Shown one piece after another: positions 11,650 to 50,777 of a DNA stretch of 50,798 bases. A model generated the notes under the pieces. That model searched no databases and had not been told where the DNA came from. It saw only the letters and a program-made list of their open reading frames with translations. The stretch comes from Nemertoderma westbladi. Its lineage: Eukaryota > Animalia > Xenacoelomorpha. The position numbers and the translations under genes were made by a program. The stretch's first letter is position 1; each line of letters begins with the position of its first letter. Location: the NCBI GenBank assembly GCA_032718475.1, contig JAUCBJ010005936.1, positions 1 through 50,798 on the forward strand. The letters run 5' to 3'.

Positions 11650-11986
11650 ATTTTTTATTTTAGTTTTTATTTTTATTTTCGCCCACCTGAACTTCCCAAG
11701 ATCTACGCGATATTTATAAAACAGCTAAACTCTTTGGAACGTCGATATGTATAATTGAACATTAAAATCAGTCAAAAAAGCCTTCTAAAACAGTAAGTTT
11801 AACATTAATTATATTCTAAAAAAATTTATAAAAAGTTAAAAATCATTCGCAAATATAGCTAGTTTCTGGTATTTCTATGGTGTATAAAGTGTTACAGAAC
11901 AAGTTTTTCTTATTCTAGTCTTATTCTAGTTTCTAGTTTTTTAAACAATTTTTCGCTTTAAATGGTCTCAAAGAAAATTAGTTGGT

Positions 11987-15011: not shown

Positions 15012-15135
15012 TATAGCAGTCTGGCAGTGTCTCACTTTATTTTAAATATCTTTACACTGAGATCGCATGAAATATTTAACAAAAAGCTTTTCGGCGAATT
15101 AACTACGATTATTATTAATTCTGCGGACACAGGAG

Positions 15136-18100
15136 AAGGTTATGTAATGTTTAATCGTTGCTCGTACGTAAGGGATAAGGTTATGTAATGTTTAATCGTT
15201 GCTCGTACGTAAGGGATAAGGTTATGTAATGTTTAATCGTTGCTCGTACGTAAGGGATAAGGTTATGTAATGTTTAATCGTTGCTCGTACGTAAGGGATA
15301 AGGTTATGTAATGTTTAATCGTTGCTCGTACGTAAGGGATAAGGTTATGTAATGTTTAATCGTTGCTCGTACGTAAGGGATAAGGTTATGTAATGTTTAA
15401 TCGTTGCTCGTACGTAAGGGATAAAGTTATGTAATGTTTAATCGTTGCTCGTATGTAAGGGATAAGGTTATGTAATGTTTAATCGTTGCTCGTATGTAAG
15501 GGATAAGGTTATGTAATGTTTAATCGTTGCTCGTACGTAAGGGATAAAGGTTATGGGACGTTTAATCGTTGCTCGTATGTAAGGGATAAGGTTATGTAAT
15601 GTTTAATCGTTGCACGTATGTAAGGGATAAAGGTTATGTAATGTTTAATCGTTGCTCGTACGTAAGGGATAAAGGTTATGGAACGTTTAATCGTTGCTCG
15701 TACGTAAGGGATAAGGTTATGGGACGTTTAATCGTTGCACGTATGTAAGGGATAAAGGTTATGGGACGTTTAATCGTTGCTCGTATGTAAGGGATAAGGT
15801 TATGTAATGTTTAATCGTTGCACGTATGTAAGGGATAAAGGTTATGGAACGTTTAATCGTTGCTTGTATGTAAGGGATAAGGTTATGTAATGTTTAATCG
15901 TTGCACGTATGTAAGGGATAAAGGTTATGGAACGTTTAATCGTTGCTCGTACGTAAGGGATAAAGGTTATGGAACGTTTAATCGTTGCTCGTACGTAAGG
16001 GATAAGGTTATGGTACGTTTAATCGTTGCACGTATGTAAGGGATAAAGGTTATGGGACGTTTAATCGTTGCTCGTATGTAAGGGATAAGGTTATGTAATG
16101 TTTAATCGTTGCACGTATGTAAGGGATAAAGGTTATGGAACGTTTAATCGTTGCTCGTATGTAAGGGATAAGGTTATGTGATGTTTAATCGTTGCACGTA
16201 TGGAAGGGATAAAGGTTATGGAACGTTTAATCTTTGCTCGTACGTAAGGGATAAAGGTTATGGGACGTTTAATCGTTGCTCGTATGTAAGGGATAAGGTT
16301 ATGTAATGTTTAATCGTTGCACGTATGTAAGGGATAAAGGATATGTAATATTTAATCGTTGCTCGTACGTAAGGGATAAGGTTATGAAATGTTTAATCGT
16401 TGCTCGTACGTAAGGGATAAAGGTTATGGGACGTTTAATCGTTGCTCGTATGTAAGGGATAAGGTTATGTAATGTTTAATCGTTGCACGTATGTAAGGGA
16501 TAAAGGTTATGTAATATTTAATCGTTGCTCGTACTTAAGGGATAAGGTTATGTAATGTTTAATCGTTGCTCGTACGTAAGGGATAAAGGTTATGGGACGT
16601 TTAATCGTTGCTCGTATGTCTGGGATAAGGTTATGTAATGTTTAATCGTTGCACGTATGTAAGGGATAAAGGTTATGTAATATTTAATCGTTGCTCGTAC
16701 GTAAGGGATAAGGTTATGTAATGTTTAATCGTTGCTCGTACGTAAGGGATAAAGGTTATGGGACGTTTAATCGTTGCTCGTATGTAAGGGATAAGGTTAT
16801 GTAATGTTTAATCGTTGCACGTATGTAAGGGATAAAGGTTATGTAATATTTAATCGTTGCTCGTACGTAAGGGATAAGGTTATGTAATCTTTAATCGTTG
16901 CTCGTACGTAAGGGATAAAGGTTATGGGACGTTTAATCGTTGCTCGTATGTAAGGGATAAGGTTATGTATTGTTTAATCGTTGCACGTATGTAAGGGATA
17001 AAGGTTATGGAACGTTTAATCGTTGCTCGTACGTAAGGGATAAAGGTTATGGGACGTTTAATCGTTGCTCGTATGTAAGGGATAAGGTTATGTAATGTTT
17101 AATCGTTGCACGTATGTAAGGGATAAAGGTTATGTAATATTTAATCGTTGCTCGTACGTAAGGGATAAGGTTATGTAATATTTAATCGTTGTTCGTACGT
17201 AAGGGATAAGGTTATGGGACGTTTAATCGTTGCTCGTACGTAAGGGATAAGGTTATGGGACGTTTAATCGTTGCTCGTACGTAAGGGATAAGGTTATGGG
17301 ACGTTTAATCGTTGCTCGTACGTAAGGGGTAAGGTTATGGGACGTTTAATCGTTGCTCGTACGTAAGGGATAAGGTTATGGGACGTTTAATCGTTGCACG
17401 TATGTAAGGGATAAAGGTTATGGAACGTTTAATCGTTGCTCGTACGTAAGTGATAAGGTTATGTAATATTTAATCGTTGCTCGTACGTAAGGGATAAGGT
17501 TATGTAATGTTTAATCGTTGCTCGTACGTAAGGGATAAGGTTATGGGACGTTTAATCGTTGCTCGTACGTAAGGGATAAGGTTATGTAATATTTAATCGT
17601 TGTTCGTACGTAAGGGATAAGGTTATGGGACGTTTAATCGTTGCTCGTTCGTAAGGGATAAGGTTATGGGACGTTTAATCGTTGCTCGTACGTAAGGGAT
17701 AAGGTTATGGGACGTTTAATCGTTGCTCGTACGTAAGGGATAAGGTTATGGGACGTTTAATCGTTGCTCGTACGTAAGGGATAAGGTTATGGGACGTTTA
17801 ATCGTTGCTCGTACGTAAGGGATAAGGTTATGGAACGTTTAATCGTTGCTCGTACGTAAGGGATAAGGTTATGTAATGTTTAATCGTTGCTCGTACGTAA
17901 GGGATAAGGTTATGTAATGTTTAATCGTTGCTCGTATGTAAGGGATAAGGTTATGGAACGTTTAATCGTTGCTCGTACGTAAGGGATAAGGTTATGTAAT
18001 GTTTAATCGTTGCTCGTACGTAAGGGATAAGGGATAAGGTTATGTAATGTTTAATCGTTGCTCGTATGTAAGGGATAAGGTTATGGAACGTTTAATCGTT

Positions 18101-18638
18101 GCTCGTACGTAAGGGATAAGGTTATGTAATGTTTAATCGTTGCTCGTACATAAGGGATAAGGTTATGTAATGTTTAATCGTTGCTCGTACGTAAGGGATA
18201 AGGTTATGTAATGTTTAATCGTTGTTCGTACGTAAGGGATAAGGTTATGTAATGTTTAATCGTTGCTCGTACGTAAGGGATAAGTTATGGGACGTTTAAT
18301 CGTTGCTCGTACGTAAGGGATAAGGTTATGTAATGTTTAATCGTTGCACGTACGTAAGGGATAAGGTTATGTAATGTTTAATCGTTGTTCGTACGTAAGG
18401 GATAAGGTTATGGAACGTTTAATCGTTGCTCGTACGTAAGGGATAAGGTTATGTAATGTTTAATCGTTGCACGTACGTAAGGGATAAGGTTATGTAATGT
18501 TTAATCGTTGCTCGTATGTAAGGGATATGTAATGTTTAATCGTTGCTCGTACGTAAGGGATAAGGTTATGGAACGTTTAATCGTTGCACGTACGTAAGGG
18601 ATAAGGTTATGGAACGTTTAATCGTTGCTCGTACGTAA
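15136..18638. repeat. 41/42-bp minisatellite, ~85 copies
   Basis: Unit AAGGTTATGTAATGTTTAATCGTTGCTCGTACGTAAGGGAT; variants alternate in a higher-order pattern in the middle of the array. Confidence 0.97.
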
Positions 18639-18949
18639 TCAGATGTCATTTGCGTCAATTTTTCGATTTCCATGGAGGGAGACCTTGCCGTATAATTTTG
18701 ATTGTTTCGCAGCAAGTGTGTTTAGTGTTTGATTATCTTTGATTATCAGTGTCAGCTGGGCGGTGAGCGATTATCTAGTTTGTGTAGGTTAATATTATAC
18801 CGGTCAGCCGGTACATACTGTAATATTTCCGTGTTTCTTGTATAATTATTTTGTACCGGTACGGTATCATTCATAGCAGCATTGTATACATACAGACATA
18901 CCAGATAACCGCGTCTGTGTCTGTCTAAACAAAAGGCAGACAATGGGTG

Positions 18950-20173
18950 ATGGAAATGGAAGGTCAAGATGATATTTCTATGGGACAGTCAGAAAGCGAG
19001 ATTGACGACAAATATCGTCTTCTGCCTTCAGAAAGTGGGCCTAGCAACTGTACCAGCACCGGTACCGGCACCGGTACAACACCTGATGGAATAAGAATAC
19101 AAGCGACCGAAACCAAAGACCCTTCCGTTACAGTCATGTCGAATCACTCCAGAAAGTTAATAAAACAGGTTAAAAACTCAACTATTAACTTAGCTGGATT
19201 CATTATCGCCAAATCTCCTTATATCTTCCCGGCAATTGTTCTTGTCTTCCAGTGGTCAGGCGACCCTCTGTCGTTCATACTGATCTGGCCGGTTCTATTC
19301 TGTTTGTTCCTGTTGGGACAGGACCGGCTGTTGTACCACCCAGACAGTCCCAGTCCGACCCTCAGTCTGTACGACCCCAGTCCTCTCTGTGTCGGCGCTG
19401 CCCATGACAGCTTCACTATAACGACTAGCGACCGCGTCAGACTCCACTGTTACCGCCTATCCTACACGCAGGGCCAGCCCCTCTGCACCATTGTATTCCT
19501 ACACGGTAACGCCGGCAGCATAGGTTACCGGCTGCCCAACGCGGTGGAGTTAGTTGCCAGTTGCCGTAGTAACGTGATCCTGGTAGACTACCGAGGTTAC
19601 GGACTCAGCGAAGGGAGTCCGACCGAGCGAGGTCTCTACCTAGACGCCGCAGCGGCGGTCAACCACTCGCTAGACTCGCGAGACGGACTCCCAGTCGTTG
19701 TGTTCGGTCGCTCTATTGGTGGCGCCGTCGCAATAAACGCGGCGACTCGCCACGGAATTAGCAGCCGAATCGCTGCGCTCGTCCTCGAGAACACATTCAC
19801 TGGGATCCCCCAGATGGCCGGGGTTATTAGCAACCTACCATTCCTGAGTAAGTTACCGCGATTCTGTTACCGGAATTACTTCCCTTCCCTATCGCGAGTC
19901 GGTTCGGTTTCCTGTCCGACTCTGTTCCTCAGCGGCGAGTTGGACACTCTAGTTCCCCCCAGCATGGTCAACCAATTGTTTGATGAGTGCGGCTCTGAGA
20001 TTAAGAGATTGGTGCGTTTTACCACGGGTTGCCATGGGTCCACGTGGGGTTGTCCCGGGTATTACCCGGCTATTTCCGAGTTCATCCGGTTGTGTCTCAG
20101 TCCGGAATCCGTTGGGTTGAGTCAGTCCGATATCCGGGTTGTTTCTGCGGACGGTTTAACTAGAGCCGGTTAA
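18950..20173 (+). CDS. ABHD13: Alpha/beta-hydrolase ABHD13 (Bem46 family), single coding exon
   Basis: TM segment then QDRLLYHP, FLHGNAGSIG, VDYRGYGLSEGSPTERGL, nucleophile elbow GRSIGG, LVLENTFT, SGELDTLVP (Asp), GCHGSTW (His); first in-frame ATG at 18950. Confidence 0.92.
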   Translation: MEMEGQDDISMGQSESEIDDKYRLLPSESGPSNCTSTGTGTGTTPDGIRIQATETKDPSVTVMSNHSRKLIKQVKNSTINLAGFIIAKSPYIFPAIVLVFQWSGDPLSFILIWPVLFCLFLLGQDRLLYHPDSPSPTLSLYDPSPLCVGAAHDSFTITTSDRVRLHCYRLSYTQGQPLCTIVFLHGNAGSIGYRLPNAVELVASCRSNVILVDYRGYGLSEGSPTERGLYLDAAAAVNHSLDSRDGLPVVVFGRSIGGAVAINAATRHGISSRIAALVLENTFTGIPQMAGVISNLPFLSKLPRFCYRNYFPSLSRVGSVSCPTLFLSGELDTLVPPSMVNQLFDECGSEIKRLVRFTTGCHGSTWGCPGYYPAISEFIRLCLSPESVGLSQSDIRVVSADGLTRAG

Positions 20174-21645: not shown

Positions 21646-22412
21646 TGACAAATTTAGAACTAAATTACCATCGTTGACTTGCTCACAACATTTAAAAAAA
21701 TATATTGTGTTCTAGAACACAATATTAGCTAATTTCAGAAGAATTGCGACATATAAGGGGGGGGAGGGGGGGGGGGTAAAATCGTCTAATGAGACGATAG
21801 TAAATTTGGCAAACAGAGGCATAATAAAGGGCGTTTCACAGAAGGGCACTGGACTAGTGGGGAGGAGTAAGGAACTATTTTTAGCTGCTATTTTTTAAAG
21901 TAGTAGCTAGCACATTAGCTAATGTTCAAAAACAAAGTATTTTCAGTGTTGCTTAAACATAAATCAATAACATAACACCAACAAATTAAAATAAAAAAAA
22001 TATTTTTTAAAACACTAGCTACCATAAAACATAGCTAACATTAAAAGCACTAGCTAGATTAAATAACAATTCGTCACTAATAATTGTCAACATTGATCAA
22101 TGAGAACATCACAGAAAATCCAAAGTAATAGACTCAAAGAATATTTTTTTTAAATAATAGCTAGCTGATTGCTAATGTTCTAGAACACAATATTTTTTGA
22201 AAAATGTTGCGATAAAATCAGTGGTGATATTACAGTACTATGTAAAAAGTACATCATTTAATTAATTAATATTAAAATATCAAATGCGACTGCATACGGA
22301 ACTCTAGCCTAAATATGAGATATTTATATATTTTGTCTTATATATTTTGTGACCCTTAATATTATAGCTAACAGCGAATCATATTAATCTGAAATCCCCT
22401 AATTTGGCTAAA

Positions 22413-23624
22413 ATGACAGGTATTTTATTATCCTCTGATGCCCAGTTAGGTATTTCACCATCTTCTGATCGCCTCTGTTTGCCTTACATCAGGGTTGCAG
22501 CTCGGAGGGAGACGCAATCCTTGGATGAGTTCGTGTTAAATAATTGGTATGCAAAGTACTCACCAGGAAATAAAAAAACAATAAATAATTGGTATGCAAA
22601 GTACTCACCAGGAAATAAAAAAACAATAAATAATTGGTATGCAAAGTACTCACCAGGGAAGAAAAATAAAAAAACTATAAATAGTAATCACCTTATGATG
22701 AAAAGAAACGAAACAAATAACTATATAGTAGGTGATCAACACACAATGACATTCAAGAATGTTTTAATAGAAATCATCAACATTGTTAATCATCAAAGCT
22801 ATGAAACTGAAAGTAAATATTTCAATGTAAATGTGTCGATCACGGATAAGTTATTCACTCTGAAGTTCTTAGACAAGTTCACGGATCCAAAAGGCCACAG
22901 GAAAGTCAAGAGAAAAGTCAGGTTTACTGGAATCGGTTATCAATGTAATCAAAAGAAAAAAGTCAAGGTATTTGTTAAAAATGCTCTTGCATGTGTCTTT
23001 GAAGTTGTATTCCATTTATGTTCAACTGATCTCACCATAAAATTCAGCAATGCTTTGAAAGAACATGATATATTAGAGTGGAAGTTCGGCAGTTCCCAGA
23101 ACGAAGTACCCAATAACCGAGATCTACTGTTCCAAAGTAACCTGGTAATAGCTATGTTTGATTGGGTGGAAACATTCTGCCTGACTATGAACAAATTATA
23201 TGATGATTTCGAATATCCCGACGTCGACATGCTTGAAAAGATCATGGAGAAAATTATAAGAAAGGATGAACTTCCCCTTGGCCCTGATGCGCAGGATGAT
23301 AATATCCGTCGTGTAATGTGTTTCCTGACGCTCGATACTCTATCGAGTTTCATTGCTGAACTGAGTCACAAGGAGGATAAGATTGTAATGGAAGCGTTAT
23401 GTAGCTTAGTTGGAGTTCATCTCCTAAAGGTTGTGGAAGCTAAGATACGATTTTACGATTGTCGAGCTGCCCTAGAATTGTTGCGCAGAGTTCACGCTTT
23501 TCTGCGCGAAGGTACCGGAAATGTAGAGAGAGATGTTTACTATATCGGGAAGATATCAGCTACTATACGGGAACTGGGGGACGCAGTGTTTAAGTCAATG
23601 ATTAATCAACGGAGTAGGAATTGA
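22413..23624 (+). CDS. Hypothetical intronless ~400-aa protein
   Basis: 1.2-kb ORF in AT-rich DNA with AAAATG start context; globular-looking, helix-rich C-terminal half; no family recognised. Confidence 0.6.
   Translation: MTGILLSSDAQLGISPSSDRLCLPYIRVAARRETQSLDEFVLNNWYAKYSPGNKKTINNWYAKYSPGNKKTINNWYAKYSPGKKNKKTINSNHLMMKRNETNNYIVGDQHTMTFKNVLIEIINIVNHQSYETESKYFNVNVSITDKLFTLKFLDKFTDPKGHRKVKRKVRFTGIGYQCNQKKKVKVFVKNALACVFEVVFHLCSTDLTIKFSNALKEHDILEWKFGSSQNEVPNNRDLLFQSNLVIAMFDWVETFCLTMNKLYDDFEYPDVDMLEKIMEKIIRKDELPLGPDAQDDNIRRVMCFLTLDTLSSFIAELSHKEDKIVMEALCSLVGVHLLKVVEAKIRFYDCRAALELLRRVHAFLREGTGNVERDVYYIGKISATIRELGDAVFKSMINQRSRN
22538..22685 (+). repeat. In-frame 45-bp tandem triplication (NNWYAKYSPGNKKTI)
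   Basis: Three copies of AATAATTGGTATGCAAAGTACTCACCAGG at 45-bp spacing. Confidence 0.9.
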
Positions 23625-28170: not shown

Positions 28171-31100
28171 ACAGTTATTTATTACTTTCAGTAAGACTCA
28201 GACTCGCCACTAATACAGTTATTTATTACTTTCAGTAAGACTCAGACACGCCACTAATACAGTTATTTATTACTTTCAGTAAGACTCAGACACGCCACTA
28301 ATACAGTTATTTATTACTTTCAGTAAGACTCAGACTCGCCACTAATACAGTTATTTATTACTTTCAGTAAGACTCAGACACGCCACTAATACAGTTATTT
28401 ATTACTTTCAGTAAGACTCAGACACGCCACTAATACAGTTATTTATTACTTTCAGTAAGACTCAGACTCGCCACTAATACAGTTATTTATTACTTTCAGT
28501 AAGACTCAGACTCGCCACTAATACAGTTATTTATTACTTTCAGTAAGACTCAGACTCGCCACTAATACAGTTATTTATTACTTTCAGTAAGACCCAGACT
28601 CGCCACTAATACAGTTATTTATTACTTTTAGTAAGACCCAGACTCGCCACTAATACAGTTATTTATTACTTTCAGTAAGACTCAGACTCGCCACTAATAC
28701 AGTTATTTATTACTTTCAGTAAGACTCAGACTCGCCACTAATACAGTTATTTATTACTTTCAGTAAGACCCCGACTCGCCACTAATACAGTTATTTATTA
28801 CTTTCAGTAAGACTCAGACTCGCCACTAATACAGTTATTTATTACTTTCAGTAAGACTCAGACTCGCCACTAATACAGTTATTTATTACTTTCAGTAAGA
28901 CTCAGACTCGCCACTAATACAGTTATTTATTACTTTCAGTAAGACTCAGACTCGCCACTAATACAGTTATTTATTACTTTCAGTAAGACCCCGACTCGCC
29001 ACTAATACAGTTATTTATTACTTTCAGTAAGACTCAGACTCGCCACTAATACAGTTATTTATTACTTTCAGTAAGACCCAGACTCGCCACTAATACAGTT
29101 ATTTATTACTTTCAGTAAGCCCCAGACTCGCCACTAATACAGTTATTTATTACTTTCAGTAAGACCCAGACTCGCCACTAATACAGTTATTTATTACTTT
29201 CAGTAAGACCCAGACTCGCCACTAATACAGTTATTTATTACTTTCAGTAAGACCCAGACTCGCCACTAATACAGTTATTTATTACTTTCAGTAAGACCCA
29301 GACTCGCCACTAATAAAGTTATTTATTACTTTCAGTAAGACTCAGACTCGCCACTAATACAGTTATTTATTACTTTCAGTAAGACCCAGACTCGCCACTA
29401 ATACAGTTATTTATTACTTTCAGTAAGACTCAGACTCGCCACTAATACAGTTATTTATTACTTTCAGTAAGACCCAGACTCGCCACTAATACAGTTATTT
29501 ATTACTTTCAGTAAGACCCAGACTCGCCACTAATACAGATATTTATTACTTTCAGTAAGACCCAGACTCGCCACTAATACAGTTATTTATTACTTTCAGT
29601 AAGACCCAGACTCGCCACTAATACAGTTATTTATTACTTTCAGTAAGACTCAGACTCGCCACTAATACAGTTATTTATTACTTTCAGTAAGACTCAGACT
29701 CGCCACTAATACAGTTATTTATTACTTTCAGTAAGACTCAGACTCGCCACTAATACAGTTATTTATTACTTTCAGTAAGACTCAGACTCGCCACTAATAC
29801 AGTTATTTATTACTTTCAGTAAGACCCAGACTCGCCACTAATACAGTTATTTATTACTTTCAGTAAGACCCAGACTCGCCACTAATACAGTTATTTATTA
29901 CTTTCAGTAAGACTCAGACTCGCCACTAATACAGTTATTTATTACTTTCAGTAAGACCCAGACTCGCCACTAATACAGTTATTTATTACTTTCAGTAAGA
30001 CTCAGACTCGCCACTAATACAGTTATTTATTACTTTCAGTAAGACTCAGACTCGCCACTAATACAGTTATTTATTACTTTCAGTAAGACCCAGACTCGCC
30101 ACTAATACAGTTATTTATTACTTTCAGTAAGACCCAGACTCGCCACTAATACAGTTATTTATTACTTTCAGTAAGACTCAGACTCGCCACTAATAAAGTT
30201 ATTTATTACTTTCAGTAAGACCCAGACTCGCCATTAATAAAGTTATTTATTACTTTCAGTAAGCCCCAGACTCGCCACTAATACAGTTATTTATTACTTT
30301 CAGTAAGACCCAGACTCGCCACTAATACAGTTATTTATTACTTTCAGTAAGACCCAGACTCGCCATTAATAAAGTTATTTATTACTTTCAGTAAGCCCCA
30401 GACTCGCCACTAATACAGTTATTTATTACTTTCAGTAAGACCCAGACTCGCCATTAATAAAGTTATTTATTACTTTCAGTAAGACCCAGACTCGCCACTA
30501 ATACAGTTATTTATTACTTTCAGTAAGACTCAGACTCGCCACTAATACAGTTATTTATTACTTTCAGTAAGACCCAGACTCGCCACTAATACAGTTATTT
30601 ATTACTTTCAGTAAGACTCAGACTCGCCACTAATACAGTTATTTATTACTTTCAGTAAGACCCAGACTCGCCACTAATACAGTTATTTATTACTTTCAGT
30701 AAGACCCAGACTCGCCACTAATACAGATATTTATTACTTTCAGTAAGACCCAGACTCGCCACTAATACAGTTATTTATTACTTTCAGTAAGACCCAGACT
30801 CGCCACTAATACAGTTATTTATTACTTTCAGTAAGACTCAGACTCGCCACTAATACAGTTATTTATTACTTTCAGTAAGACTCAGACTCGCCACTAATAC
30901 AGTTATTTATTACTTTCAGTAAGACCCAGACTCGCCACTAATACAGTTATTTATTACTTTCAGTAAGACCCAGACTCGCCACTAATACAGTTATTTATTA
31001 CTTTCAGTAAGACTCAGACTCGCCACTAATACAGTTATTTATTACTTTCAGTAAGACCCAGACTCGCCACTAATACAGTTATTTATTACTTTCAGTAAGA

Positions 31101-37100: not shown

Positions 37101-39209
37101 ATACAGTTATTTATTACTTTCAGTAAGACTCAGACTCGCCACTAATACAGTTATTTATTACTTTCAGTAAGACTCAGACTCGCCACTAATACAGTTATTT
37201 ATTACTTTCAGTAAGACTCAGACTCGCCACTAATACAGTTATTTATTACTTTCAGTAAGACTCAGACTCGCCACTAATACAGTTATTTATTACTTTCAGT
37301 AAGACTCAGACTCGCCACTAATACAGTTATTTATTACTTTCAGTAAGACTCAGACTCGCCACTAATACAGTTATTTATTACTTTCAGTAAGACTCAGACT
37401 CGCCACTAATACAGTTATTTATTACTTTCAGTAAGACTCAGACTCGCCACTAATACAGTTATTTATTACTTTCAGTAAGACTCAGACTCGCCACTAATAC
37501 AGTTATTTATTACTTTCAGTAACACTCAGACTCGCCACTAATACAGTTATTTATTACTTTCAGTAACACTCAGACTCGCCACTAATACAGTTATTTATTA
37601 CTTTCAGTAAGACTCAGACTCGCCACTAATACAGTTATTTATTACTTTCAGTAAGACTCAGACTCGCCACTAATACAGTTATTTATTACTTTCAGTAAGA
37701 CCCAGGCTCGCCACTAATACAGTTATTTATTACTTTCAGTAAGACCCAGACTCGCCACTAATACAGTTATTTATTACTTTCAGTAAGACTCAGACTCGCC
37801 ACTAATACAGTTATTTATTACTTTCAGTAAGACCCAGACTCGCCACTAATACAGTTATTTATTACTTTCAGTAAGACTCAGACTCGCCACTAATACAGTT
37901 ATTTATTACTTTCAGTAAGACTCAGACTCGCCACTAATACAGTTATTTATTACTTTCAGTAAGACCCAGACTCGCCACTAATACAGTTATTTATTACTTT
38001 CAGTAAGACCCAGACTCGCCACTAATACAGTTATTTATTACTTTCAGTAAGACTCAGGCTCGCCACTAATACAGTTATTTATTACTTTCAGTAAGACTCA
38101 GGCTCGCCACTAATACAGTTATTTATTACTTTCAGTAAGACCCAGACTCGCCACTAATACAGTTATTTATTACTTTCAGTAAGACTCAGGCTCGCCACTA
38201 ATACAGTTATTTATTACTTTCAGTAAGACCCAGACTCGCCACTAATACAGTTATTTATTACTTTCAGTAAGACTCAGGCTCGCCACTAATACAGTTATTT
38301 ATTACTTTCAGTAAGACTCAGACTCGCCACTAATACAGTTATTTATTACTTTCAGTAAGACTCAGACTCGCCACTAATACAGTTATTTATTACTTTCAGT
38401 AAGACTCAGACTCGCCACTAATACAGTTATTTATTACTTTCAGTAAGACTCAGACTCGCCACTAATACAGTTATTTATTACTTTCAGTAAGACTCAGACT
38501 CGCCACTAATACAGTTATTTATTACTTTCAGTAAGACCCAGACTCGCCACTAATACAGTTATTTATTACTTTCAGTAAGACTCAGACTCGCCACTAATAC
38601 AGTTATTTATTACTTTCAGTAAGACTCAGACTCGCCACTAATACAGTTATTTATTACTTTCAGTAAGACCCAGACTCGCCACTAATACAGTTATTTATTA
38701 CTTTCAGTAAGACTCAGACTCGCCACTAATACAGTTATTTATTACTTTCAGTAAGACTCAGACTCGCCACTAATACAGTTATTTATTACTTTCAGTAAGA
38801 CTCAGACTCGCCACTAATACAGTTATTTATTACTTTCAGTAAGACTCAGACTCGCCACTAATACAGTTATTTATTACTTTCAGTAAGACTCAGACTCGCC
38901 ACTAATACAGTTATTTATTACTTTCAGTAAGACCCAGACTCGCCACTAATACAGTTATTTATTACTTTCAGTAAGACCCAGACTCGCCACTAATACAGTT
39001 ATTTATTACTTTCAGTAAGACTCAGACTCGCCACTAATACAGTTATTTATTACTTTCAGTAAGACTCAGACTCGCCACTAATACAGTTATTTATTACTTT
39101 CAGTAAGACTCAGACTCGCCACTAATACAGTTATTTATTACTTTCAGTAAGACTCAGACTCGCCACTAATACAGTTATTTATTACTTTCAGTAAGACTCA
39201 GGCTCGCCA
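28171..39209 (+). repeat. 44-bp tandem array, 251 copies, of the intron 2 / exon 3 boundary
   Basis: Unit ACAGTTATTTATTACTTTCAG|TAAGACTCAGACTCGCCACTAAT; first AG ends at 28191, last at 39191 (exactly 250 x 44 bp). Confidence 0.98.
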
Positions 39210-39270
39210 AGCTTTTGCCTCCTACCTATCTCGTGTACAGCAGCGGTTGCAGTTGGAGTCTCGTCGTGAC
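39192..39270 (+). CDS. Uncharacterised multi-exon gene, exon 3
   Basis: Last array acceptor continues into SKTQARQAFASYLSRVQQRLQLESRRD; GAC|GTACGT donor, phase 0. Confidence 0.75.
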
Positions 39271-39669
39271 GTACGTAATGACGACACCAAAAACGATGAA
39301 CAAATGGTTAGTTCTTTAAGGAGTGCACGTCACCAACGGCAACCGTCACCAACACATCACGATATTGTTAATTGTGCACTAAATGTTACTGAAACGATCA
39401 TATTATCACTGCAATATTATGTACTTGTTGGGGACTCCCTAACACAGTTAGGTAAAAAAATAAAAGTTAGCGAGGGATGTAAATGCTAACGGGGGATAAT
39501 CTATACTACTGCTAACATTCTTTGATATTTTATTTATCTCCGTTCCATAGCCCCACCATACATAAAGTTGCAAGTCGGTTATTGACTTGTCACTTGTCAG
39601 TTAATAAGAAAGTCTAGTACCTGTATTATATTACCTATTATAATTATATTTTTACTTTCTATTTCTTAG

Positions 39670-39899
39670 GATTTGGTTCTCCGATTTTTAAAACGCGCCG
39701 CTGCCAATTTGAGTCAGCCGTTTAAGGTGTTGGTTCCAACCCGCCGGTTGCCAATTAATCAACGTCGAAGGATCCTATCGAAACAACTAGGTGACTTCGT
39801 GTTGGTGTACAACAGGGAGACAGAGCGATCTCGTAAACACAACGAGACGGGGAACTCCAGTACGGAACGGATGTTCGCTGCCTTCACTAACAGAGCCAA
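39670..39899 (+). CDS. Uncharacterised multi-exon gene, exon 4
   Basis: TTTCTTAG acceptor; DLVLRFLKRAAANL...RMFAAFTNRA; AA|GTAAGT donor, phase 2. Confidence 0.8.
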
Positions 39900-42800
39900 G
39901 TAAGTAGAGAGACGGGGAACTCCAGTACGGAACGGGTGTTCGCTGCCTTCACTAACAGAGCCAAGTAAGTAGAGAGACGGGGAACTCCAGTACGGAACGG
40001 GTGTTCGCTGCCTTCACTAACAGAGCCAAGTAAGTAGAGAGACGGGGAACTCCAGTACGGAACGGGTGTTCGCTGCCTTCACTGACAGAGCCAAGTAAGT
40101 AGAGAGACGGGGAACTCCAGTACGGAACGGGTGTTCGCTGTCTTCACTGACAGAGCCAAGTAAGTATAGAGACGGGGAACTCCATTACGGAACGGGTGTT
40201 CGCTGCCTTCACTAACAGAGCCAAGTAAGTAGAGAGACGGGGAACTCCAGTACGGAACGGGTGTTCGCTGCCTTCACTAACAGAGCCAAGTAAGTAGAGA
40301 GACGGGGAACTCCAGTACGGAACGGGTGTTCGCTGCCTTCACTAACAGAGCCAAGTAAGTAGAGAGACGGGGAACTCCAGTACGGAACGGGTGTTCGCTG
40401 CCTTCACTGACAGAGCCAAGTAAGTAGAGAGACGGGGAACTCCAGTACGGAACGGGTGTTCGCTGTCTTCACTGACAGAGCCAAGTAAGTATAGAGACGG
40501 GGAACTCCATTACGGAACGGGTGTTCGCTGCCTTCACTAACAGAGCCAAGTAAGTAGAGAGACGGGGAACTCCAGTACGGAACGGGTGTTCGTTGCCTTC
40601 ACTGACGGAGCCAAGTAAGTAGAGATACGGGGAACTCCAGTACGGAACGGGTGTTCGCTGCCTTCACTAACAGAGCCAAGTAAGTAGAGAGACGGGGAAC
40701 TCCAGTACGGAACGGGTGTTTGTTGCCTTCACTGACGGAGCCAAGTAAGTAGAGAGATGGGGAACTCCAGTACGGAACGGGTGTTCGCTGCCTTCACTAA
40801 CAGAGCCAAGTAAGTAGAGAGACGGGGAACTCCAGTGCGGAACGGGTGTTCGTTGCCTTCACTGACGGAGCCAAGTAAGTAGAGAGACGGGGAACTCCAG
40901 TACGGAACGGGAACTCCAGTACGGAACGGGTGTTCGTTGCCTTCACTGACGGAGCCAAGTAAGTAGAGAGACGGGGAACTCCAGTACGGAACGGGTGTTC
41001 GCTGCCTTCACTAACAGAGCCAAGTAAGTAGAGAGACGGGGAACTCCAGTACGGAACGGGTGTTCGCTGCCTTCACTGACAGAGCCAAGTAAGTAGAGAG
41101 ACGGGGAACTCCAGTACGGAACGGGTGTTCGCTGCCTTCACTAACAGAGCCAAGTAAGTAGAGAGACGGGGAACTCCAGTACGGAACGGGTGTTCGTTGC
41201 CTTCACTGACGGAGCCAAGTAAGTAGATAGACGGGGAACTCCAGTACGGAACGGGTGTTCGCTGCCTTCACTGACGGAGCCAAGTAAGTAGAGAGACGGG
41301 GAACTCCAGTACGGAACGGGTGTTCGCTGCCTTCACTGACGGAGCCAAGTAGGTAGAGAGACGGGGAACTCCATTACGGAACGGGTGTTCGCTGCCTTCA
41401 CTGACGGAGCCAAGTAGGTAGAGAGACGGGGAACTCCAGTACGGAACGGGTGTTCGCTGCCTTCACTAACAGAGCCAAGTAAGTAGAGAGACGGGGAACT
41501 CCAGTACGGAACGGGTGTTCGTTGCCTTCACTGACGGAGCCAAGTAAGTAGAGAGACGGGGAACTCCAGTACGGAACGGGTGTTCGCTGCCTTCACTGAC
41601 GGAGCCAAGTAGGTAGAGAGACGGGGAACTCCAGTACGGAACGGGTGTTCGCTGCCTTCACTAACAGAGCCAAGTAAGTAGAGAGACGGGGAACTCCAGT
41701 ACGGAACGGGTGTTCGTTGCCTTCACTGACGGAGCCAAGTAAGTAGAGAGACGGGGAACTCCAGTACGGAACGGGTGTTCGTTGCCTTCACTGACGGAGC
41801 CAAGTAGGTAGAGAGACGGGGAACTCCAGTACGGAACGGGTGTTCGCTGCCTTCACTAACAGAGCCAAGTAAGTAGAGAGACGGGGAACTCCAGTACGGA
41901 ACGGGTGTTCGTTGCCTTCACTGACGGAGCCAAGTAAGTAGAGAGACGGGGAACTCCAGTACGGAACGGGTGTTCGCTGCCTTCACTGACGGAGCCAAGT
42001 AGGTAGAGAGACGGGGAACTCCAGTACGGAACGGGTGTTCGCTGCCTTCACTAACAGAGCCAAGTAAGTAGAGAGACGGGGAACTCCAGTACGGAACGGG
42101 TGTTCGTTGCCTTCACTGACGGAGCCAAGTAAGTAGAGAGACGGGGAACTCCAGTACGGAACGGCTGTTCGCTGCCTTCACTAACAGAGCCAAGTAAGTA
42201 GAGAGACGGGGAACTCCAGTACGGAACGGGTGTTCGTTGCCTTCACTGACGGAGCCAAGTAAGTAGAGAGACGGGGAACTCCAGTACGGAACGGGTGTTC
42301 GCTGCCTTCACTGACGGAGCCAAGTAAGTAGAGAGACGGGGAACTCCAGTACGGAACGGGTGTTCGTTGCCTTCACTGACAGAGCCAAGTAAGTAGAGAG
42401 ACGGGGAACTCCAGTACGGAACGGGTGTTCGCTGCCTTCACTAACAGAGCCAAGTAAGTAGAGAGACGGGGAACTCCAGTACGGAACGGGTGTTCGTTGC
42501 CTTCACTGACGGAGCCAAGTAAGTAGAGAGACGGGGAACTCCAGTACGGAACGGGTGTTCGTTGCCTTCACTGACGGAGCCAAGTAAGTAGAGAGACGGG
42601 GAACTCCAGTACGGAACGGGTGTTCGTTGCCTTCACTGACAGAGCCAAGTAAGTAGAGAGACGGGGAACTCCAGTACGGAACGGGTGTTCGTTGCCTTCA
42701 CTGACGGAGCCAAGTAAGTAGAGAGACGGGGAACTCCAGTACGGAACGGGTGTTCGCTGCCTTCACTGACAGAGCCAAGTAAGTAGAGAGACGGGGAACT

Positions 42801-42952
42801 CCAGTACGGAACGGGTGTTCGCTGCCTTCACTAACAGAGCCAAGTAAGTAGAGAGACGGGGAACTCCAGTACGGAACGGGTGTTCGTTGCCTTCACTAAC
42901 AGAGCCAAGTAAGTAGAGAGACGGGGAACTCCAGTACGGAAGGGGTGTTCGT
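39844..42952 (+). repeat. 65-bp tandem array (47 donor-bearing copies) of the exon 4 / intron 4 boundary
   Basis: Unit GAGACGGGGAACTCCAGTACGGAACGGGTGTTCGCTGCCTTCACTAACAGAGCCAA|GTAAGTAGA; first copy is the coding exon end; one 19-bp internal duplication near 40910. Confidence 0.98.
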
Positions 42953-43160
42953 TCAGGTTTGATGGTTTGATGAAGATCACTACGGGTTTTTGTTCGGATT
43001 CACTACGGGTACAGATTCGCTCGGATTCAGAACGCCTTGATCTAATTTTCTTCTTTATGTAAAATTAAAGGACTCGATAAAATTTATAACATATAAAATT
43101 TGGCTTCAATGTATTTCAAAGAAATACGATTTTAATCTCAATTTTAATTTCAATCTAATA

Positions 43161-46100
43161 TTGGTGTAGACATTGGTGTAGACCTTGGTGTAGACATTGG
43201 TGTAGACCTTGGTGTAGACATTGGTGTAGACATTGGTGTAGACATTGGTGTAGATCTTGTTGTAACCTTGGTGTAGACCTTAGTGTAGACATTGGTGTAT
43301 ATCTTGGTGTAGACATTGGTGTAGACATTGGTGTAGACATTGGTGTAGATCTTGGTGTAGACATTGGTGTAGACCTTGGTGTAGACCTTGGTGTAGACCT
43401 TGGTGTAGACATTGGTGTAGATATTGGTGTAGACATTGGTGTAGACATTGGTGTAGATATTGGTGTAGACCTTGGTGTAGACCTTGGTGTAGACATTGGT
43501 GTAGACCTTAGTGTAGACATTGGTGTAGACCTTTGTGTAGACATTGGTGTAGACCTTGTGTAGACCTTGGTGTAGACCTTGGTGTAGACCTTGGTGTAGA
43601 CCTTGGTGTAGACCTTGGTGTAGACCTTTGTGTAGACATTGGTGTAGACCTTTGTGTAGACATTGGTGTAGACCTTGTGTAGACCTTGGTGTAGACCTTG
43701 GTGTAGATCTTGTTGTAGACCTTGGTATAGACATTGGTGTAGACATTGGTGTAGATATTGGTGTAGATCTTGTTGTAACCTTGGTGTAGACCTTGGTGTA
43801 GACATTGGTGTAGACCTTGGTGTAGACCTTGGTGTAGAGCTTGGTGTAGACCTTTGTGTAGACATTGGTGTAGACCTTTGTGTAGACATTGGTGTAGACC
43901 TTGTGTAGACCTTGGTGTAGACCTTGGTGTAGACATTGGTGTAGACATTGGTGTAGACATTCGTGTAGATATTGGTGTAGATCTTGTTGTAACCTTGGTG
44001 TAGACCTTGGTGTAGACATTGGTGTAGACCTTGGTGTAGGTAGACATTGGTGTAGACCTTGGTGTAGACATTGGTGTAGATCTTGTTGTAGACCTTGGTG
44101 TAAACCTTGGTGTAGATCTTGGTGTAGACATTGGTGTAGACATTGGTGTAGACCTTGGTGTAGACATTTGTGTAGATCTTGGTGTAGACCTTTGTGTAGA
44201 CATTGGTGTAGATCTTGTTGTAGATCTTGGTGTAGACCTTTGTGTAGACATTGGTGTAGACCTTGTGTAGACCTTGGTGTAGACCTTGGTGTAGACCTTG
44301 GTGTAGACATTGGTGTAGACATTGGTGTAGACATTGGTGTAGATCTTGGTGTATACATTGGTGTAGACATTGGTGTAGACCTTGGTGTAGACATTGGTGT
44401 AGACCTTGGTGTAGACATTGGTGTAGACATTGGTGCAGACATTGGTGTAGACATTGGTGTAGACATTGGTGTAGATCTTGTTGTAACCTTGGTGTAGACA
44501 TTGGTGTAGATCTTGGTTTAGACCTTGGTGTAGACCTTGGTGTAGACCTTGGTGTAGATCTTGTTGTAACCTTGGTGTAGACATTGGTGTAGATCTTGGT
44601 GAGACATTTGTGTAGATCTTGTTGTAACCTTGGTGTAGACATTGGTGTAGATCTTGGTGTGGACCTTGGTGTAGACCTTGGTGTAGACCTTGGTGTAGAC
44701 ATTGGTGTAGACCTTGTTGTAGACCTTGGTGTAGACCTTGGTGTAGACATTGGTGTAGACCTTGGTGTAGACCTTGGTGTAGACCTTGGTGTAGACCTTG
44801 GTATAGACATTGGTGTAGACCTTGTTGTAGACCTTGGTGTAGACCTTGGTGTAGACATTGGTGTAGACCTTGGTGTAGACCTTGGTGTAGACCTTGGTGT
44901 AGACATTGGTGTAGACATTGGTGTAGATCTTGTTGTAACCTTGGTGTAGACATTGGTGTAGATCTTGGTTTAGACCTTGTTGTAGACCTTGGTGTAGACA
45001 TTGGTGTAGACCTTGTGTAGACCTTGGTGTAGACCTTGGTGTAGACATTGGTGTAGACCTTGGTGTAGATCTTGTTGTAACCTTGGTGTAGACATTGGTG
45101 TAGATCTTGGTGTGGACCTTGGTGTAGACCTTGGTGTAGACCTTGGTGTAGACATTGGTGTAGACCTTGTTGTAGACCTTGGTGTAGACCTTGGTGTAGA
45201 CATTGGTGTAGACCTTGGTGTAGACCTTGGTGTAGACCTTGGTGTAGACCTTGGTATAGACATTGGTGTAGACCTTGTTGTAGACCTTGGTGTAGACCTT
45301 GGTGTAGACCTTGGTGTAGACATTGGTGTAGATCTTGTTGTAACCTTGGTGTAGACATTGGTGTATATCTTGGTGTAGACATTGGTGTAGACATTGGTGT
45401 AGACATTGGTGTAGATCTTGGTGTAGACATTGGTGTAGACATTGGTGTAGACTTTGGTGTAGACATTGGTGTAGACATTGGTGTAGACATTGGTGTAGAC
45501 ATTGGTGTAGACCTTGGTGTAGACCTTGGTGTAGACATTGGTGTAGATCTTGTTGTAACCTTGGTGTAGACATTGGTGTAGATCTTGTTGTAACCTTGGT
45601 GTAGATCTTGTTGTAACCTTGGTGTAGACATTGGTGTATATCTTGGTGTAGACATTGGTGTAGACATTGGTGTAGACATTGGTGTAGATCTTGGTGTAGA
45701 CATTGGTGTAGACATTGGTGTAGACTTTGGTGTAGACATTGGTGTAGACCTTGGTGTAGACATTGGTGTAGATCTTGTTGTAACCTTGGTGTAGATCTTG
45801 TTGTAACCTTGGTGTAGACCTTAGTGTAGACATTGGTGTATATCTTGGTGTAGACCTTGGTGTAGACATTGGTGTAGACCTTGGTGTAGACCTTGGTGTA
45901 GATCTTGGTGTAGACATTGGTGTAGACCTTGGTGTAGACCTTGGTGTAGACCTTGGTGTAGACATTGGTGTATATCTTGGTGTAGACATTGGTGTAGACA
46001 TTGGTGTAGACATTGGTGTAGATCTTTGTATAGACATTGGTGTAGACATTGGTGTAGACATTGGTGTAGACATTGGTGTAGATCTTGGTGTAGACATTGG

Positions 46101-48686
46101 TGTAGACATTGGTGTAGACTTTGGTGTAGACATTGGTGTAGACCTTGGTGTAGACATTGGTGTGGACATTGGTGTAGACCTTGGTGTAGACCTTGGTGTA
46201 GACATTGGTGTAGACCTTGGTGTAGACCTTGGTGTAGACCTTGGTGTAGACATCGGTGTAGACCTTGGTATAGACCTTGGTGTAGATCTTGTTGTAGACC
46301 TTGGTGTAGACCTTGGTGTAGACCCTGGTGTAGACATTGGTGTAGATCTTGGTGTAGACCTTGGTGTAGACATCGGTGTAAACTTTGGTATAGACCTTGG
46401 TGTAGATCTTGTTGTAGACCTTGGTGTAGACCTTGGTGTAGACCTTGGTGTAGACCTTGGTGTAGACCTTGGTGCAGACCTTGGTGTAGACATTGGTGTA
46501 GATCTTGTTGTAACCTTGTTGTAGACCTTGGTGTAGACCTTGGTGTAGACCTTGGTGTAGACATTGGTGTAGATCTTGTTGTAGACCTTGGTGTAGACCT
46601 TGGTGTAGACCTTGGTGTAGACCTTGGTGTAGACATTGGTGTAGACATTGGTGTAGACATTGGTGTAGACGTTGGTGTAGACCTTTGTGTAGACCTTGAT
46701 GTAGACATTGGTGTAGATCTTGTTGTAACCATGGTGTAGACCTTGGTTTAGACCTTGGTGTAGACCTTGGTGTAGACCTTGGTGTAGACATTGGTGTAGA
46801 CATTGGTGTAGACCTTGGTGTAGACATTGGTGTAGATATTGGTGTAGACATTGGTGTAGACCTTGGTGTAGACATTGGTGTAGACCTTGGTGTAGACCTT
46901 GGTGCAGACCTTGGTGTAGATCTTGTTGTAGACCTTGTTGTAGACCTTGGTGTAGACCTTGGTATAGACATTGTTGTAGACCTTGGTATAGACCTTGGTA
47001 TGGACCTTGGTGTAGACATCGGTGTAGACCTTGGTATAGACCTTGGTGTAGATCTTGTTGTAGACCTTGTTGTAGACCTTGGTGTAGACCTTGGTATAGA
47101 CATTGTTGTAGACCTTGGTATAGACCTTGGTATGGACCTTGGTGTAGACCTTGGTGTAGACCTTGGTGTAGACCTTGGTGTAGTCCTTGGTGCAGACCTT
47201 GGTGTAGGTAGACATTGGTGTAGACATTGGTGTAGACATTGGTGTAGATCTTGGTGTAGATATTGGTGTAGACCTTGGTGTAGACATTGGTGTAGACATT
47301 GGTGTAGACCTTGGTGTAGACATTTGTGTAGACCTTGGTGTAGACATTGGTGCAGACCCTGGTGTAGACCTTGGTGTAGACCTTGTTGTAGACCTTGGTG
47401 TAGACATTGGTGTAGACCTTGGTGTAGATCTTGTTGTAACCTTGGTGTAGACATTGGTGTATATCTTGGTGTAGACATTGATGTAGACATTGGTGTAGAC
47501 ATTGGTGTAGATCTTGGTGTAGACATTGGTGTAGACATTGGTGTAGACCTTGGTGTAGACATTGGTGTAGACCTTGGTGTAGACATTGGTGTAGACATTG
47601 GTGTAGACATTGGTGTAGATCTTGTTGTAACCTTGGTGTAGACCTTGGTGTAGACATTGGTGTAGACCTTGGTGTAGACCTTGGTGTAGACATTGGTGTA
47701 GATCTTGTTGTAGACCTTGGTGTAGACCTTGGTGTAGATCTTGGTGTAGACATTGGTGTAGACATTGGTGTAGACCTTGGTGTAGACATTGGTGTAGACC
47801 TTGGTGTAGACCTTGGTGTAACATTGGTGTAGATCTTGTTGTAGATCTTTGTGTAGACCTTGGTGTAGATCTTGGTGTAGACATTGGTGTAGACATTGGT
47901 GTAGACATTGGTGTAGATCTTGTTGTAACCTTGTTGTAGACCTTGGTGTAGACCTTGGTGTAGACCTTGGTGTAGACCTTGGTGTAGATATTGGTGTAAA
48001 CATTGGTGTAGTCCTTGGTGTAGACCTTGGTGTAGACCTTGATGTAGACATTGGTGTAGATCTTGGTTTAGACCTTGGTGTAGACATTGGTGTAGATCTT
48101 GTTGTAGACCTTGGTGTAGACATTGGTGTAGACCTTGGTGTAGACATTGGTGTAGACCTTGGTGTAGACATTGGTGCAGACCTTGGTGTAGACCTTGGTG
48201 TAGACCTTGTTGTAGACCTTGGTGTAGACATTGGTGTAGACCTTGGTGTAGATCTTGTTGTAACCTTGGTGTAGACATTGGTGTAGATCTTGTTGTAGAC
48301 CTTGGTGTAGACCTTGGTGTTGACCTTGGTGTAGACATTGGTGTAGACATTGGTGTAGACTTTGGTGTAGACCTTGGTGTAGACCTTGGTGTAGACATTG
48401 GTGTAGACCTTGGTGTAGACATTGGTGTAGATCTTGTTGTAGACATTGGTGTAGACCTTGGTGTAGACATTGGTGCAGACCTTGGTGTAGACCTTGGTGT
48501 AGACCTTGGTGCAGACCTTGGTGTAGACATTGGTGTAGACCTTGGTGCAGACCTTGGTATAGACATTGGTGTAGATCTTGGTGTAGACATTGATGTAGAC
48601 CTTGGGGTAGACATTGGTGTAGACCTTGTTGTAGACCTTGGTGTAGACATTGGTGTAGACCTTGGTGTAGACATTGGTGTAGACCT
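43161..48686. repeat. 12-bp satellite (TTGGTGTAGAC[C/A])n, ~460 copies, intronic
   Basis: Directly visible, with 11-bp variants; explains all long ORFs called in this interval. Confidence 0.98.
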
Positions 48687-48766
48687 GTGTTCTTTACCTT
48701 ACCTGGCTTGTTACTGGCGGTAATTATTTTATTGGTGTAACATCCTCATTTAATTGTTATTCTTAG

Positions 48767-49077
48767 TGAAGCCGAATTGGAAGAAGTTCTCACATTGTTT
48801 ACTAAACTCCACAAGTCCGCGAGTATCTTCCTCGGGGGCAGTTCAACGAAGCCTCACAGCCTAAAGAAACCCAATTCGGAACAGATTAACGACGCAGTGC
48901 CCGTAGAGGAGGCAACCAACCAATCAGAAGCGGTACAACAGGAACGCCTGTTTCATCGGACCAATCAGAAAATACTTAATAAACGAAGCTCTTCAGAAGA
49001 AAGAGAGACTATGGCACGTAGGGAGGGGATTAGCAAAGTCAATGATTGGCAATGTGCTGAAAATAAAGCAATGAACG
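48767..49077 (+). CDS. Uncharacterised multi-exon gene, exon 5
   Basis: TTATTCTTAG acceptor; phase-2 join gives NEAELEEVLTLF...ENKAMN; G|GTTAGT donor, phase 1. Confidence 0.8.
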
Positions 49078-49284: not shown

Positions 49285-49398
49285 GTGGAGGTGCGAGCGT
49301 TGTTACAGACTACGAGATTACAGATGTAGACGATTCTCACACCTCCAATAGACAACGACCTGCGTCAGCCACAGTAATGAGGATTCACGGACCCACCG
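49285..49398 (+). CDS. Uncharacterised multi-exon gene, exon 6
   Basis: TTTCAG acceptor; GGGASVVTDYEITD...RIHGPT; G|GTAAGT donor; 114 nt, phase 1-1. Confidence 0.75.
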
Positions 49399-50711: not shown

Positions 50712-50777
50712 GTTCACTTCTCACTCAGGGTCGTCCCAGTTCCGCATCCAGCCGTCGACTCCGTACCGATAACACCG
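50712..50777 (+). CDS. Uncharacterised multi-exon gene, exon 7 (gene continues beyond window)
   Basis: TTCTTCCTCAG acceptor; GSLLTQGRPSSASSRRLRTDNT; G|GTTAGT donor; 66 nt, phase 1-1. Confidence 0.7.

What the first reader, a model, noticed from the sequence alone, without database searches (positions are those of the whole stretch)
28171..39209. 11-kb array of 251 complete 3' splice sites; only the last gives an open frame
Seen: each 44-bp unit has a branch-point-like CACTAAT, a T-rich tract, TTTCAG and the first 18 nt of exon 3. Splicing exon 2 to any of the first 250 acceptors reads S-K-T-Q-T-R-H-stop; only the acceptor at 39191 continues in frame. Known: first-AG scanning would choose a decoy, so correct splicing needs strict exon definition via the exon 3 donor. 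Inference: a natural decoy array that could sequester U2AF/SF1, tune output through NMD in a copy-number-dependent way, or make a truncated isoform.
Basis: partly seen in the sequence, partly recalled or inferred. Interest (0 to 1): 0.85.

Follow-up and report, generated by a model that had tools for sequence, protein, structure and literature searches.

The report
Giant splice-acceptor "mirage" repeat in TTLL5
In an invertebrate's TTLL5 gene, the end of an intron plus the start of the next exon is repeated 251 times (11 kb), yet the one messenger RNA seen uses only the last, true copy, so this is likely a harmless, oversized case of a repeat type already known from lancelets and humans.

Summary
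There are 251 units of 44 bp at 28165-39209; all end in AG, 250 stop after seven codons, and only the last is open. The host is TTLL5, and the junction 28002/39192 aligns without a gap to homologues. The array is not an assembly artefact: short-read depth matches the assembly (218 against 216 expected), and a second sample has it too. A spliced 3,433-nt contig from a third sample joins 28002 straight to the last acceptor. That sample's own DNA was not seen. This is a 'mirage' minisatellite as described in amphioxus (PMC3087553), related to human F7-type repeats, but about ten times longer than the published arrays I read about. It is likely tolerated because the site nearest the exon wins. Decoy signals are no more conserved than other columns, so a splicing-factor sink or an NMD dial is unsupported, though not excluded. 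The scan already noted such arrays in at least 8 other genes of this genome and in other animals (unchecked notes).

The parts
25507..25688 (+).
   Evidence: acceptor and donor in sequence; covered by RNA contig of run X3 with 0 differences
27792..28002 (+).
   Evidence: covered by X3 contig; its end is the loose end joined to 39192
28003..28164 (+). unique 5' part of the intron; with one unit the intron would be 189 nt instead of 11,189 nt
   Evidence: sequence; same left flank in samples S1 and S2
28165..39209 (+). acceptor array: 251 x 44 bp, each the last 26 nt of the intron plus the first 18 nt of the exon; 25 distinct units, 98.5% mean identity to consensus
   Evidence: short-read depth agrees with assembly
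39166..39191 (+). last unit's intron part: the authentic branch point, tract and AG
   Evidence: used by the X3 contig; only open frame
39192..39306 (+).
   Evidence: tblastn hit for 49 of 49 long homologues; X3 contig; weak match to PDB 9phh_A residues 17-43, E 0.52
39670..39899 (+). 230-nt TTLL5 exon; its last 56 nt are the seed of the donor array
   Evidence: 67 homologues at E<=0.001, most named TTLL5; PDB 9phh_A E 2e-15; X3 contig ends here and continues at 48767
39844..42951 (+). mirror donor array: 47.5 x 65 bp, 47 donors (42 GTAAGT, 5 GTAGGT); only the first is stop-free
   Evidence: first donor used by the X3 contig
43161..48686 (+). 12-bp x 462 array in the same intron, not derived from an exon edge (context)
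48767..49077 (+). next TTLL5 exon
   Evidence: tblastn hit for 47 of 49 long homologues; loose end of X3 contig

Best explanation
This is a 44-bp minisatellite made of one intron-exon boundary of TTLL5, repeated 251 times into the intron; the mRNA seen skips all 250 extra acceptors, so the array is likely a tolerated passenger of a repeat-prone genome and likely not a control device. Shown: unit anatomy, copy number, presence in two samples, use of the last acceptor and of the first donor of the mirror array in one RNA contig. Inferred, birth: a local duplication of 44 bp across the boundary (1 nt of microhomology at the break), then growth by slippage or unequal exchange, as the repeated 13-unit block suggests. 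Inferred, filter: any duplication across an acceptor leaves the last copy attached to the full exon, and any across a donor leaves the first, so 'only the innermost copy is open' is geometry, not design. Inferred, splicing: the donor at 39307 and the exon's own sequence commit the nearest upstream branch point and AG (cross-exon proximity); each decoy is followed by only 18 exon bases and then the next unit's intron signals. Rare slips would hit a stop after seven codons and would be predicted to be cleared by NMD.
For: X3 contig (3,433 nt, depth 45.8, 0 differences on four exons) joins 28002 to 39192 and 39899 to 48767. The junction is ungapped against TTLL5 homologues. X1 k-mer depth over flank is 218 against 216 expected, 143 against 137, and 22 against 26 for the donor array. 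AG and branch-point columns are invariant, but so are 26 of 44 columns (P 0.34 for two given columns; about 0.11 for four, my arithmetic from the same count). Derived alleles per column are 0.43 in the tract, 0.50 in the exon part and 0.57 elsewhere. A 13-unit block with rare variants occurs twice (shuffle maximum 8 in 200). Six arrays fill 47% of the window; four of the six touch no identified TTLL5 exon edge. Published mirages span either boundary and leave the mRNA intact (PMC3087553, PMC3902484, passages). With long flanking introns the splice sites closest across the exon are favoured (PMC9225289, abstract and section 9).
Against: The RNA comes from one contig of one sample (S3) whose DNA was not seen, so that animal's array is assumed. 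Contigs drop rare isoforms and steady-state RNA hides NMD targets. In PMC9225289 the human acceptor data show only a reduced upstream preference for long/long exons, not a strict downstream choice, so exon definition alone may not explain 250:1 fidelity. Without the array the intron is 189 nt, a size that paper places under intron definition, where the first decoy would be favoured; the animal's own rules are unknown. In human 6-16 and CBS the nearest pseudo-donors are used (PMC1557585 introduction), so some leak is plausible. Two of the three big arrays in this gene segment sit on exon edges, where a rough chance share is 0.09-0.14 per seed (post hoc), which hints that birth is not random.
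Confidence: 0.8

Rival explanations
1. Leaky decoys: a small but real share of transcripts splices to the nearest upstream units (or to the first, 189 nt from the donor) and is destroyed by NMD, so copy number or unit variants tune TTLL5 dose. The effect may be a cost rather than a function.
For: 250 of 250 decoys give a premature stop with many exons downstream. Nearest pseudo-sites are used in human 6-16 and CBS donor arrays (PMC1557585 introduction). Decoys one to three units upstream would give exons of 159-247 nt, a normal size.
Against: The only TTLL5 contig in X3 uses the last acceptor. No excess conservation of decoy signals. Beyond the nearest units the share should not scale with total copy number if choice is anchored at the exon (inference). 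Amphioxus mirages give no aberrant mRNA.
Confidence: 0.12
2. The 11-kb intron is removed in steps: the donor-like GTAAGA inside one unit splices to the acceptor of a later unit (nested splicing) before the outer intron closes on the last acceptor.
For: Every unit carries both an acceptor and a strong donor-like motif. Intronic sites in tandem repeats can be used stochastically (PMC10809524 abstract).
Against: The donor overlaps the acceptor's G (AG then TA, not AG then GT), so true recursive re-splicing would delete one exon base; the contig has no gap at the junction. An inner donor joined to the last acceptor would destroy the only productive site (from sequence).
Confidence: 0.05
3. Selected decoy sink: the array is kept because its nascent RNA binds U2AF, SF1 or U2 snRNP and so changes splicing locally or in trans.
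For: 243 of 251 units have the consensus-like CTAAT while the first unit has CTAAA; AG is invariant.
Against: That invariance is within chance. The same gene has a donor array and a signal-free array. One gene's nascent intron is a small sink (inference). Many unrelated genes of this genome are noted with like arrays (unchecked).
Confidence: 0.02
4. Assembly artefact, or a pseudogene in which splicing does not matter.
For: Long near-perfect arrays are error-prone in assembly; the catalytic TTL exons are not in this window; one run of sample S2 (X4) shows only about 27-30 times flank depth where 168 is expected from the assembly.
Against: X1 depth matches the assembly copy number; head-to-tail junctions and the same left edge occur in S2; seven exons splice to 409 codons without a stop; a spliced contig is present.
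Confidence: 0.01

Closest known systems
Amphioxus 'mirage' minisatellites (globins BflGb6 and BflGb9, Adh3, troponin C, PGBD5). Seen: 6 passages of PMC3087553 and 4 of PMC3902484; the Adh3 and troponin C papers were not read, nor the supplements.
   Same: Tandem copies of an intron end plus exon start (BflGb6 is the acceptor type); both boundaries can be duplicated; units keep their splice signals; the mRNA is normal; boundary units escape homogenisation.
   Different: 251 copies and 11 kb against 3-6 (BflGb6) and 2-7 (PGBD5); 98.5% identity; both an acceptor and a donor array within two exons. Not a Branchiostoma lancelet: the domain is 55-56% identical to Branchiostoma TTLL5, whose records match each other at 100%.
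Human F7 intron 7 37-bp VNTR and the 6-16, CBS, LMNB2 and PDGF arrays it cites. Seen: abstract, introduction and discussion of PMC1557585.
   Same: A minisatellite spanning an exon boundary repeats a functional splice site; the site next to the exon wins. Direct analogue of the 65-bp donor array here.
   Different: Those are donor arrays of 5-26 units; the finding is an acceptor array ten or more times longer.
Tandem dual-specific splice sites of human UBC / recursive ratchet points. Seen: abstract of PMC10809524; ratchet points recalled.
   Same: A tandem array whose every unit carries both acceptor and donor signals.
   Different: UBC units are coding monomers delimited by AGGT; here AG is followed by TA, the donor is shifted by one base, units are 44 nt and all hold a stop.

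Membership tests
Mirage minisatellite | Tandem unit spans an exon-intron boundary of the host gene | tested here: met
   26 nt intron + 18 nt exon; the last unit's exon part is coding TTLL5
Mirage minisatellite | Units retain splice signals | tested here: met
   AG in 251 of 251; CTAAT in 243 of 251
Mirage minisatellite | Mature mRNA uses the authentic, exon-adjacent site | tested here: met
   one contig of one RNA sample, a different animal from the DNA samples
Mirage minisatellite | Concerted evolution inside, boundary units set apart | tested here: met
   98.5% identity, duplicated 13-unit block; first unit has a private branch-point base; last unit keeps a base shared by only 6 of 250 others
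Mirage minisatellite | Copy number varies between haplotypes or individuals | tested here: inconclusive
   array present in S1 and S2, but the two runs of S2 give very different depth ratios
Mirage minisatellite | Somatic length instability (reported for Adh3) | not testable with these tools
   needs single-molecule reads from tissues
Recursive / dual-specific splice-site array | AG directly followed by GT so that re-splicing loses no base | tested here: not met
   AG is followed by TA (TC in one unit); the donor-like motif overlaps by one base; mRNA junction has no gap
Regulated unproductive splicing (poison acceptor) | Decoy signals conserved above background | tested here: not met
   26 of 44 columns invariant; P 0.34 for the AG pair. 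Low power: one array, 20 derived alleles
Regulated unproductive splicing (poison acceptor) | Premature-stop isoform detectable, stabilised when NMD is blocked | not testable with these tools
   only assembled contigs of one RNA run were available

The most novel reading that the evidence does not exclude
This animal builds giant arrays preferentially from its own splice junctions, by a mechanism tied to splicing or transcription at exon edges, and the decoys leak enough that array length sets how much intact TTLL5 mRNA survives NMD. The genome would then carry a heritable, fast-mutating dosage dial in many genes, and would be a natural 250-way competition assay for how an acceptor is chosen.
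Probability: 0.1. Interest if true: 0.65.

Novelty: new member of a known kind. Interest (0 to 1): 0.25.

Why it matters
As a single locus it matters little: the repeat type is described and the mRNA seen is normal. Its value is as an extreme test case. 250 near-identical acceptors, the first only 189 nt from the donor, lose to the one attached to the exon, and 46 donors lose to the first, which shows how strongly splice-site choice can be anchored at the exon in an invertebrate. It also warns annotators that such arrays break gene models. If exon edges prove to seed repeats above chance across this genome, that would bear on how minisatellites are born and on models of intron gain.

Tried and rejected
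No whole genome is held, so neither a genome-wide enrichment test nor a search for the upstream catalytic exons was possible. Pfam found nothing on the six exon pieces. tblastn of 49 long TTLL5 homologues found no catalytic-domain exon in the window. The run search listed no holder on record as RNA; X3 was recognised as RNA only from its spliced contig and zero depth on unique intron stretches. X3 showed no contig on the array unit although dispersed repeats were abundant in it; contigs show presence, not absence, and the animal's DNA was not seen, so I do not count this as evidence. Copy-number difference between samples could not be read: X2 and X4, one sample, disagree. RNA structure as the selector: neither three inner units nor the last units plus exon fold better than shuffles (z 0.71 and 0.94). 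Rfam finds only the tRNA in 24000-50798. In-frame use of decoys as mini-exons: 0 of 1,976. Paper searches for published acceptor-type VNTRs with splicing effects returned nothing or only unrelated papers and the F7 paper; 'mirage' + 'minisatellite' + 'splice' gave 3 papers, 2 relevant. The library lacks most subscription papers, so this does not show that large acceptor arrays are unpublished. Intron-gain papers and TTLL5 papers were seen as listings only; for PMC13052805 only the short abstract and outline.

Full report
Observation. Tandem Repeats Finder gives one array at 28165-39209, period 44, 251.0 copies, 98% matches and no indels. In fixed register all 251 units end in AG (248 TTTCAG, 2 TATCAG, 1 TTTTAG) and carry a branch-point-like motif about 22 nt upstream (CTAAT in 243, TTAAT in 7, CTAAA in the first). 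Each unit is the last 26 nt of the intron and the first 18 nt of the exon. No decoy mini-exon ending at an in-array GT is stop-free (0 of 1,976). The description is therefore right.

The gene. The exon at 39670-39899 found 67 proteins at E<=0.001 among 120 candidates, most of the named ones tubulin polyglutamylase TTLL5, and the human TTLL5 chain in PDB 9phh_A at E 2e-15. Exons 25507-25688, 27792-28002, 39192-39306, 39670-39899, 48767-49077, 49285-49398 and 50712-50777 have GT-AG borders and give 409 codons without a stop. The junction across the array aligns without a gap to lancelet and brachiopod TTLL5 in the four alignments printed. The catalytic exons are not in the window. The animal is not a Branchiostoma lancelet (55-56% identity in the domain, where Branchiostoma records match each other at 100%).

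Is the array real? In run X1, which may be the source sample, contigs on the unit have depths of 6,423 and 4,215 against 29.4 for the unique flank, ratios of 218 and 143; the assembly predicts 216 and 137 for those words. In sample S2, from another study, head-to-tail junction contigs and the same left edge are present. Its two runs disagree on depth (X2 hundreds of times the flank in summed bins, X4 about 27-30 times where 168 is expected), so copy-number variation cannot be read.

Is it spliced past? Run X3 is listed as 'DNA?' but is RNA: one 3,433-nt contig at depth 45.8 lies on four exons with no difference, skips the 363-nt GT-AG intron, and unique intron bins have zero depth. Its loose end before 39188 is the sequence of 27969-27998, and its record positions show a four-letter overlap and no gap, so the junction is exactly 28002 to 39192. 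Limits: one contig, one sample, that animal's DNA unseen, and rare or NMD-cleared isoforms invisible.

The next exon's end is amplified the other way: 47.5 units of 65 bp at 39844-42951, each the last 56 exon bases plus the donor; 47 donors, of which only the first is stop-free. The X3 contig leaves at 39899 and continues at 48767, so it uses the first donor. The same intron also holds 462 copies of a 12-mer unrelated to any exon edge, and six arrays fill 47% of the window. 'Only the innermost copy is open' follows from duplication geometry in both cases.

How it grew, and whether decoys are selected. There are 25 distinct units, 123 equal to the consensus, mean identity 98.5%. A 13-unit block with four rare variants occurs twice (units 41 and 67; shuffle maximum 8 in 200), the mark of block re-duplication. 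The break has 1 nt of microhomology. AG and branch-point columns never vary, but neither do 26 of 44 columns (P 0.34 for two given columns), and derived alleles per column are similar in tract, exon part and other intron positions (0.43, 0.50, 0.57). The test is weak, but gives no sign of selection on decoys. The real exon keeps G at +11 (alanine, as in the homologues shown) while 244 of 251 units have A, so the coding copy has not been overwritten.

Mechanism. Most likely the downstream donor and the exon body commit the nearest upstream branch point and acceptor; each decoy has only 18 exon bases before the next unit's intron signals. In human data, competing acceptors 20 or more nt apart are chosen at the first step, and long flanking introns shift choice towards the site closest across the exon, though for acceptors between two long introns the shift is only partial (PMC9225289, abstract, section 9 and passages). 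In human F7 the exon-adjacent donor wins over identical, functional pseudo-sites (PMC1557585, abstract, introduction, discussion). One point strains the simple picture: without the array the intron is 189 nt, below the 250-nt line for intron definition in that paper, so from the first duplication on this animal had to prefer the distal acceptor; exon-body signals are the likely reason (inference). Recursive removal is excluded for the product seen, because AG is followed by TA and the donor-like GTAAGA overlaps the G, so re-splicing would drop a base. RNA folding offers no selector.

Known kind. PMC3087553 (six passages) describes 'mirages' in amphioxus: minisatellite-like duplications of intron-exon boundaries, of acceptor type in BflGb6 with 6 and 3 units, which keep splice signals and do not disturb splicing; PMC3902484 (four passages) adds PGBD5 and cites Adh and troponin C. 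Four defining features are met here, copy-number variation is inconclusive and somatic instability untestable. I owe the name and these two papers to earlier notes of this scan and read the passages myself. Those notes report like arrays in at least eight other genes of this genome, one with about 840 acceptors, and 46 findings in at least 15 genomes hold the search words; they are unchecked leads, chosen by readers for oddity, and not evidence of enrichment. In this gene segment two of three large arrays sit on exon edges against a rough chance share of 0.09-0.14 per seed, which is post hoc and ignores that purely exonic arrays are lethal.

Verdict. A real, unusually long mirage in TTLL5, correctly spliced past in the one RNA seen: a new member of a known kind, larger than the published cases I could read but not the largest noted in this genome. 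Passenger 0.8, leaky NMD effect 0.12, stepwise removal 0.05, selected sink 0.02, artefact 0.01. Interest 0.25.

Noticed in passing
window 39844-42951: Mirror donor array (47.5 x 65 bp) built from the end of the next TTLL5 exon; only the first of 47 donors is open and it is the one used. The array ends in mid-unit and the original intron sequence behind the donor is not found there. Depth in X2 suggests a much longer array in sample S2, but X4 does not agree.
   Followed up: yes
window 43161-48686: 462 copies of a 12-mer in the same intron, ending 81 nt before the next acceptor; no exon-derived sequence.
   Followed up: partly
window 15132-18638: 85 copies of a 41-mer with two donor-like GT motifs per unit, preceded by an acceptor-like AG six bases before the first GT, ending about 300 nt before the hydrolase ORF; could be another junction-derived array (5' UTR exon or micro-exon). 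No RNA laid here.
   Followed up: no
window 18929-20173 (+): Intronless alpha/beta hydrolase ORF (Pfam Hydrolase_4 E 1e-17; the label ABHD13-like is recalled). It may be nested in a TTLL5 intron, since the catalytic TTLL5 exons are not in the window and the RNA contig has about 129 nt more upstream that do not lie in 24450-25503.
   Followed up: partly
window 25507 and upstream; proteins P0017, P0018: The X3 contig starts about 160 codons before the conserved domain, close to two 819-aa database proteins that lack the catalytic domain and have the same domain at residue 163: a short TTLL5 isoform or just contig breaks.
   Followed up: no
window 39192-39209: The real exon has G at +11 (alanine) while 244 of 251 units have A (threonine); the array is a store of variants that gene conversion could copy into six codons of a conserved domain.
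   Followed up: partly
window 22368-23624 (+): 418-codon open frame with an in-frame 45-bp repeat (2.9 copies) and no Pfam match.
   Followed up: no
window 11041-11724 (-): 227-codon open frame, serine-rich, no Pfam match above cut-off.
   Followed up: no
window 1-7036: Diverged 146-147-bp satellite blocks in both halves of the region (76-79% matches).
   Followed up: no
window 24298-24380 (-): tRNA-Leu gene.
   Followed up: yes
window 24450-25465 and 25974-27624: Dispersed high-copy repeats in and before the TTLL5 intron; summed depth up to about 2 million in X2 at 27371-27497 against about 20 for unique DNA, and abundant in the RNA run too.
   Followed up: no
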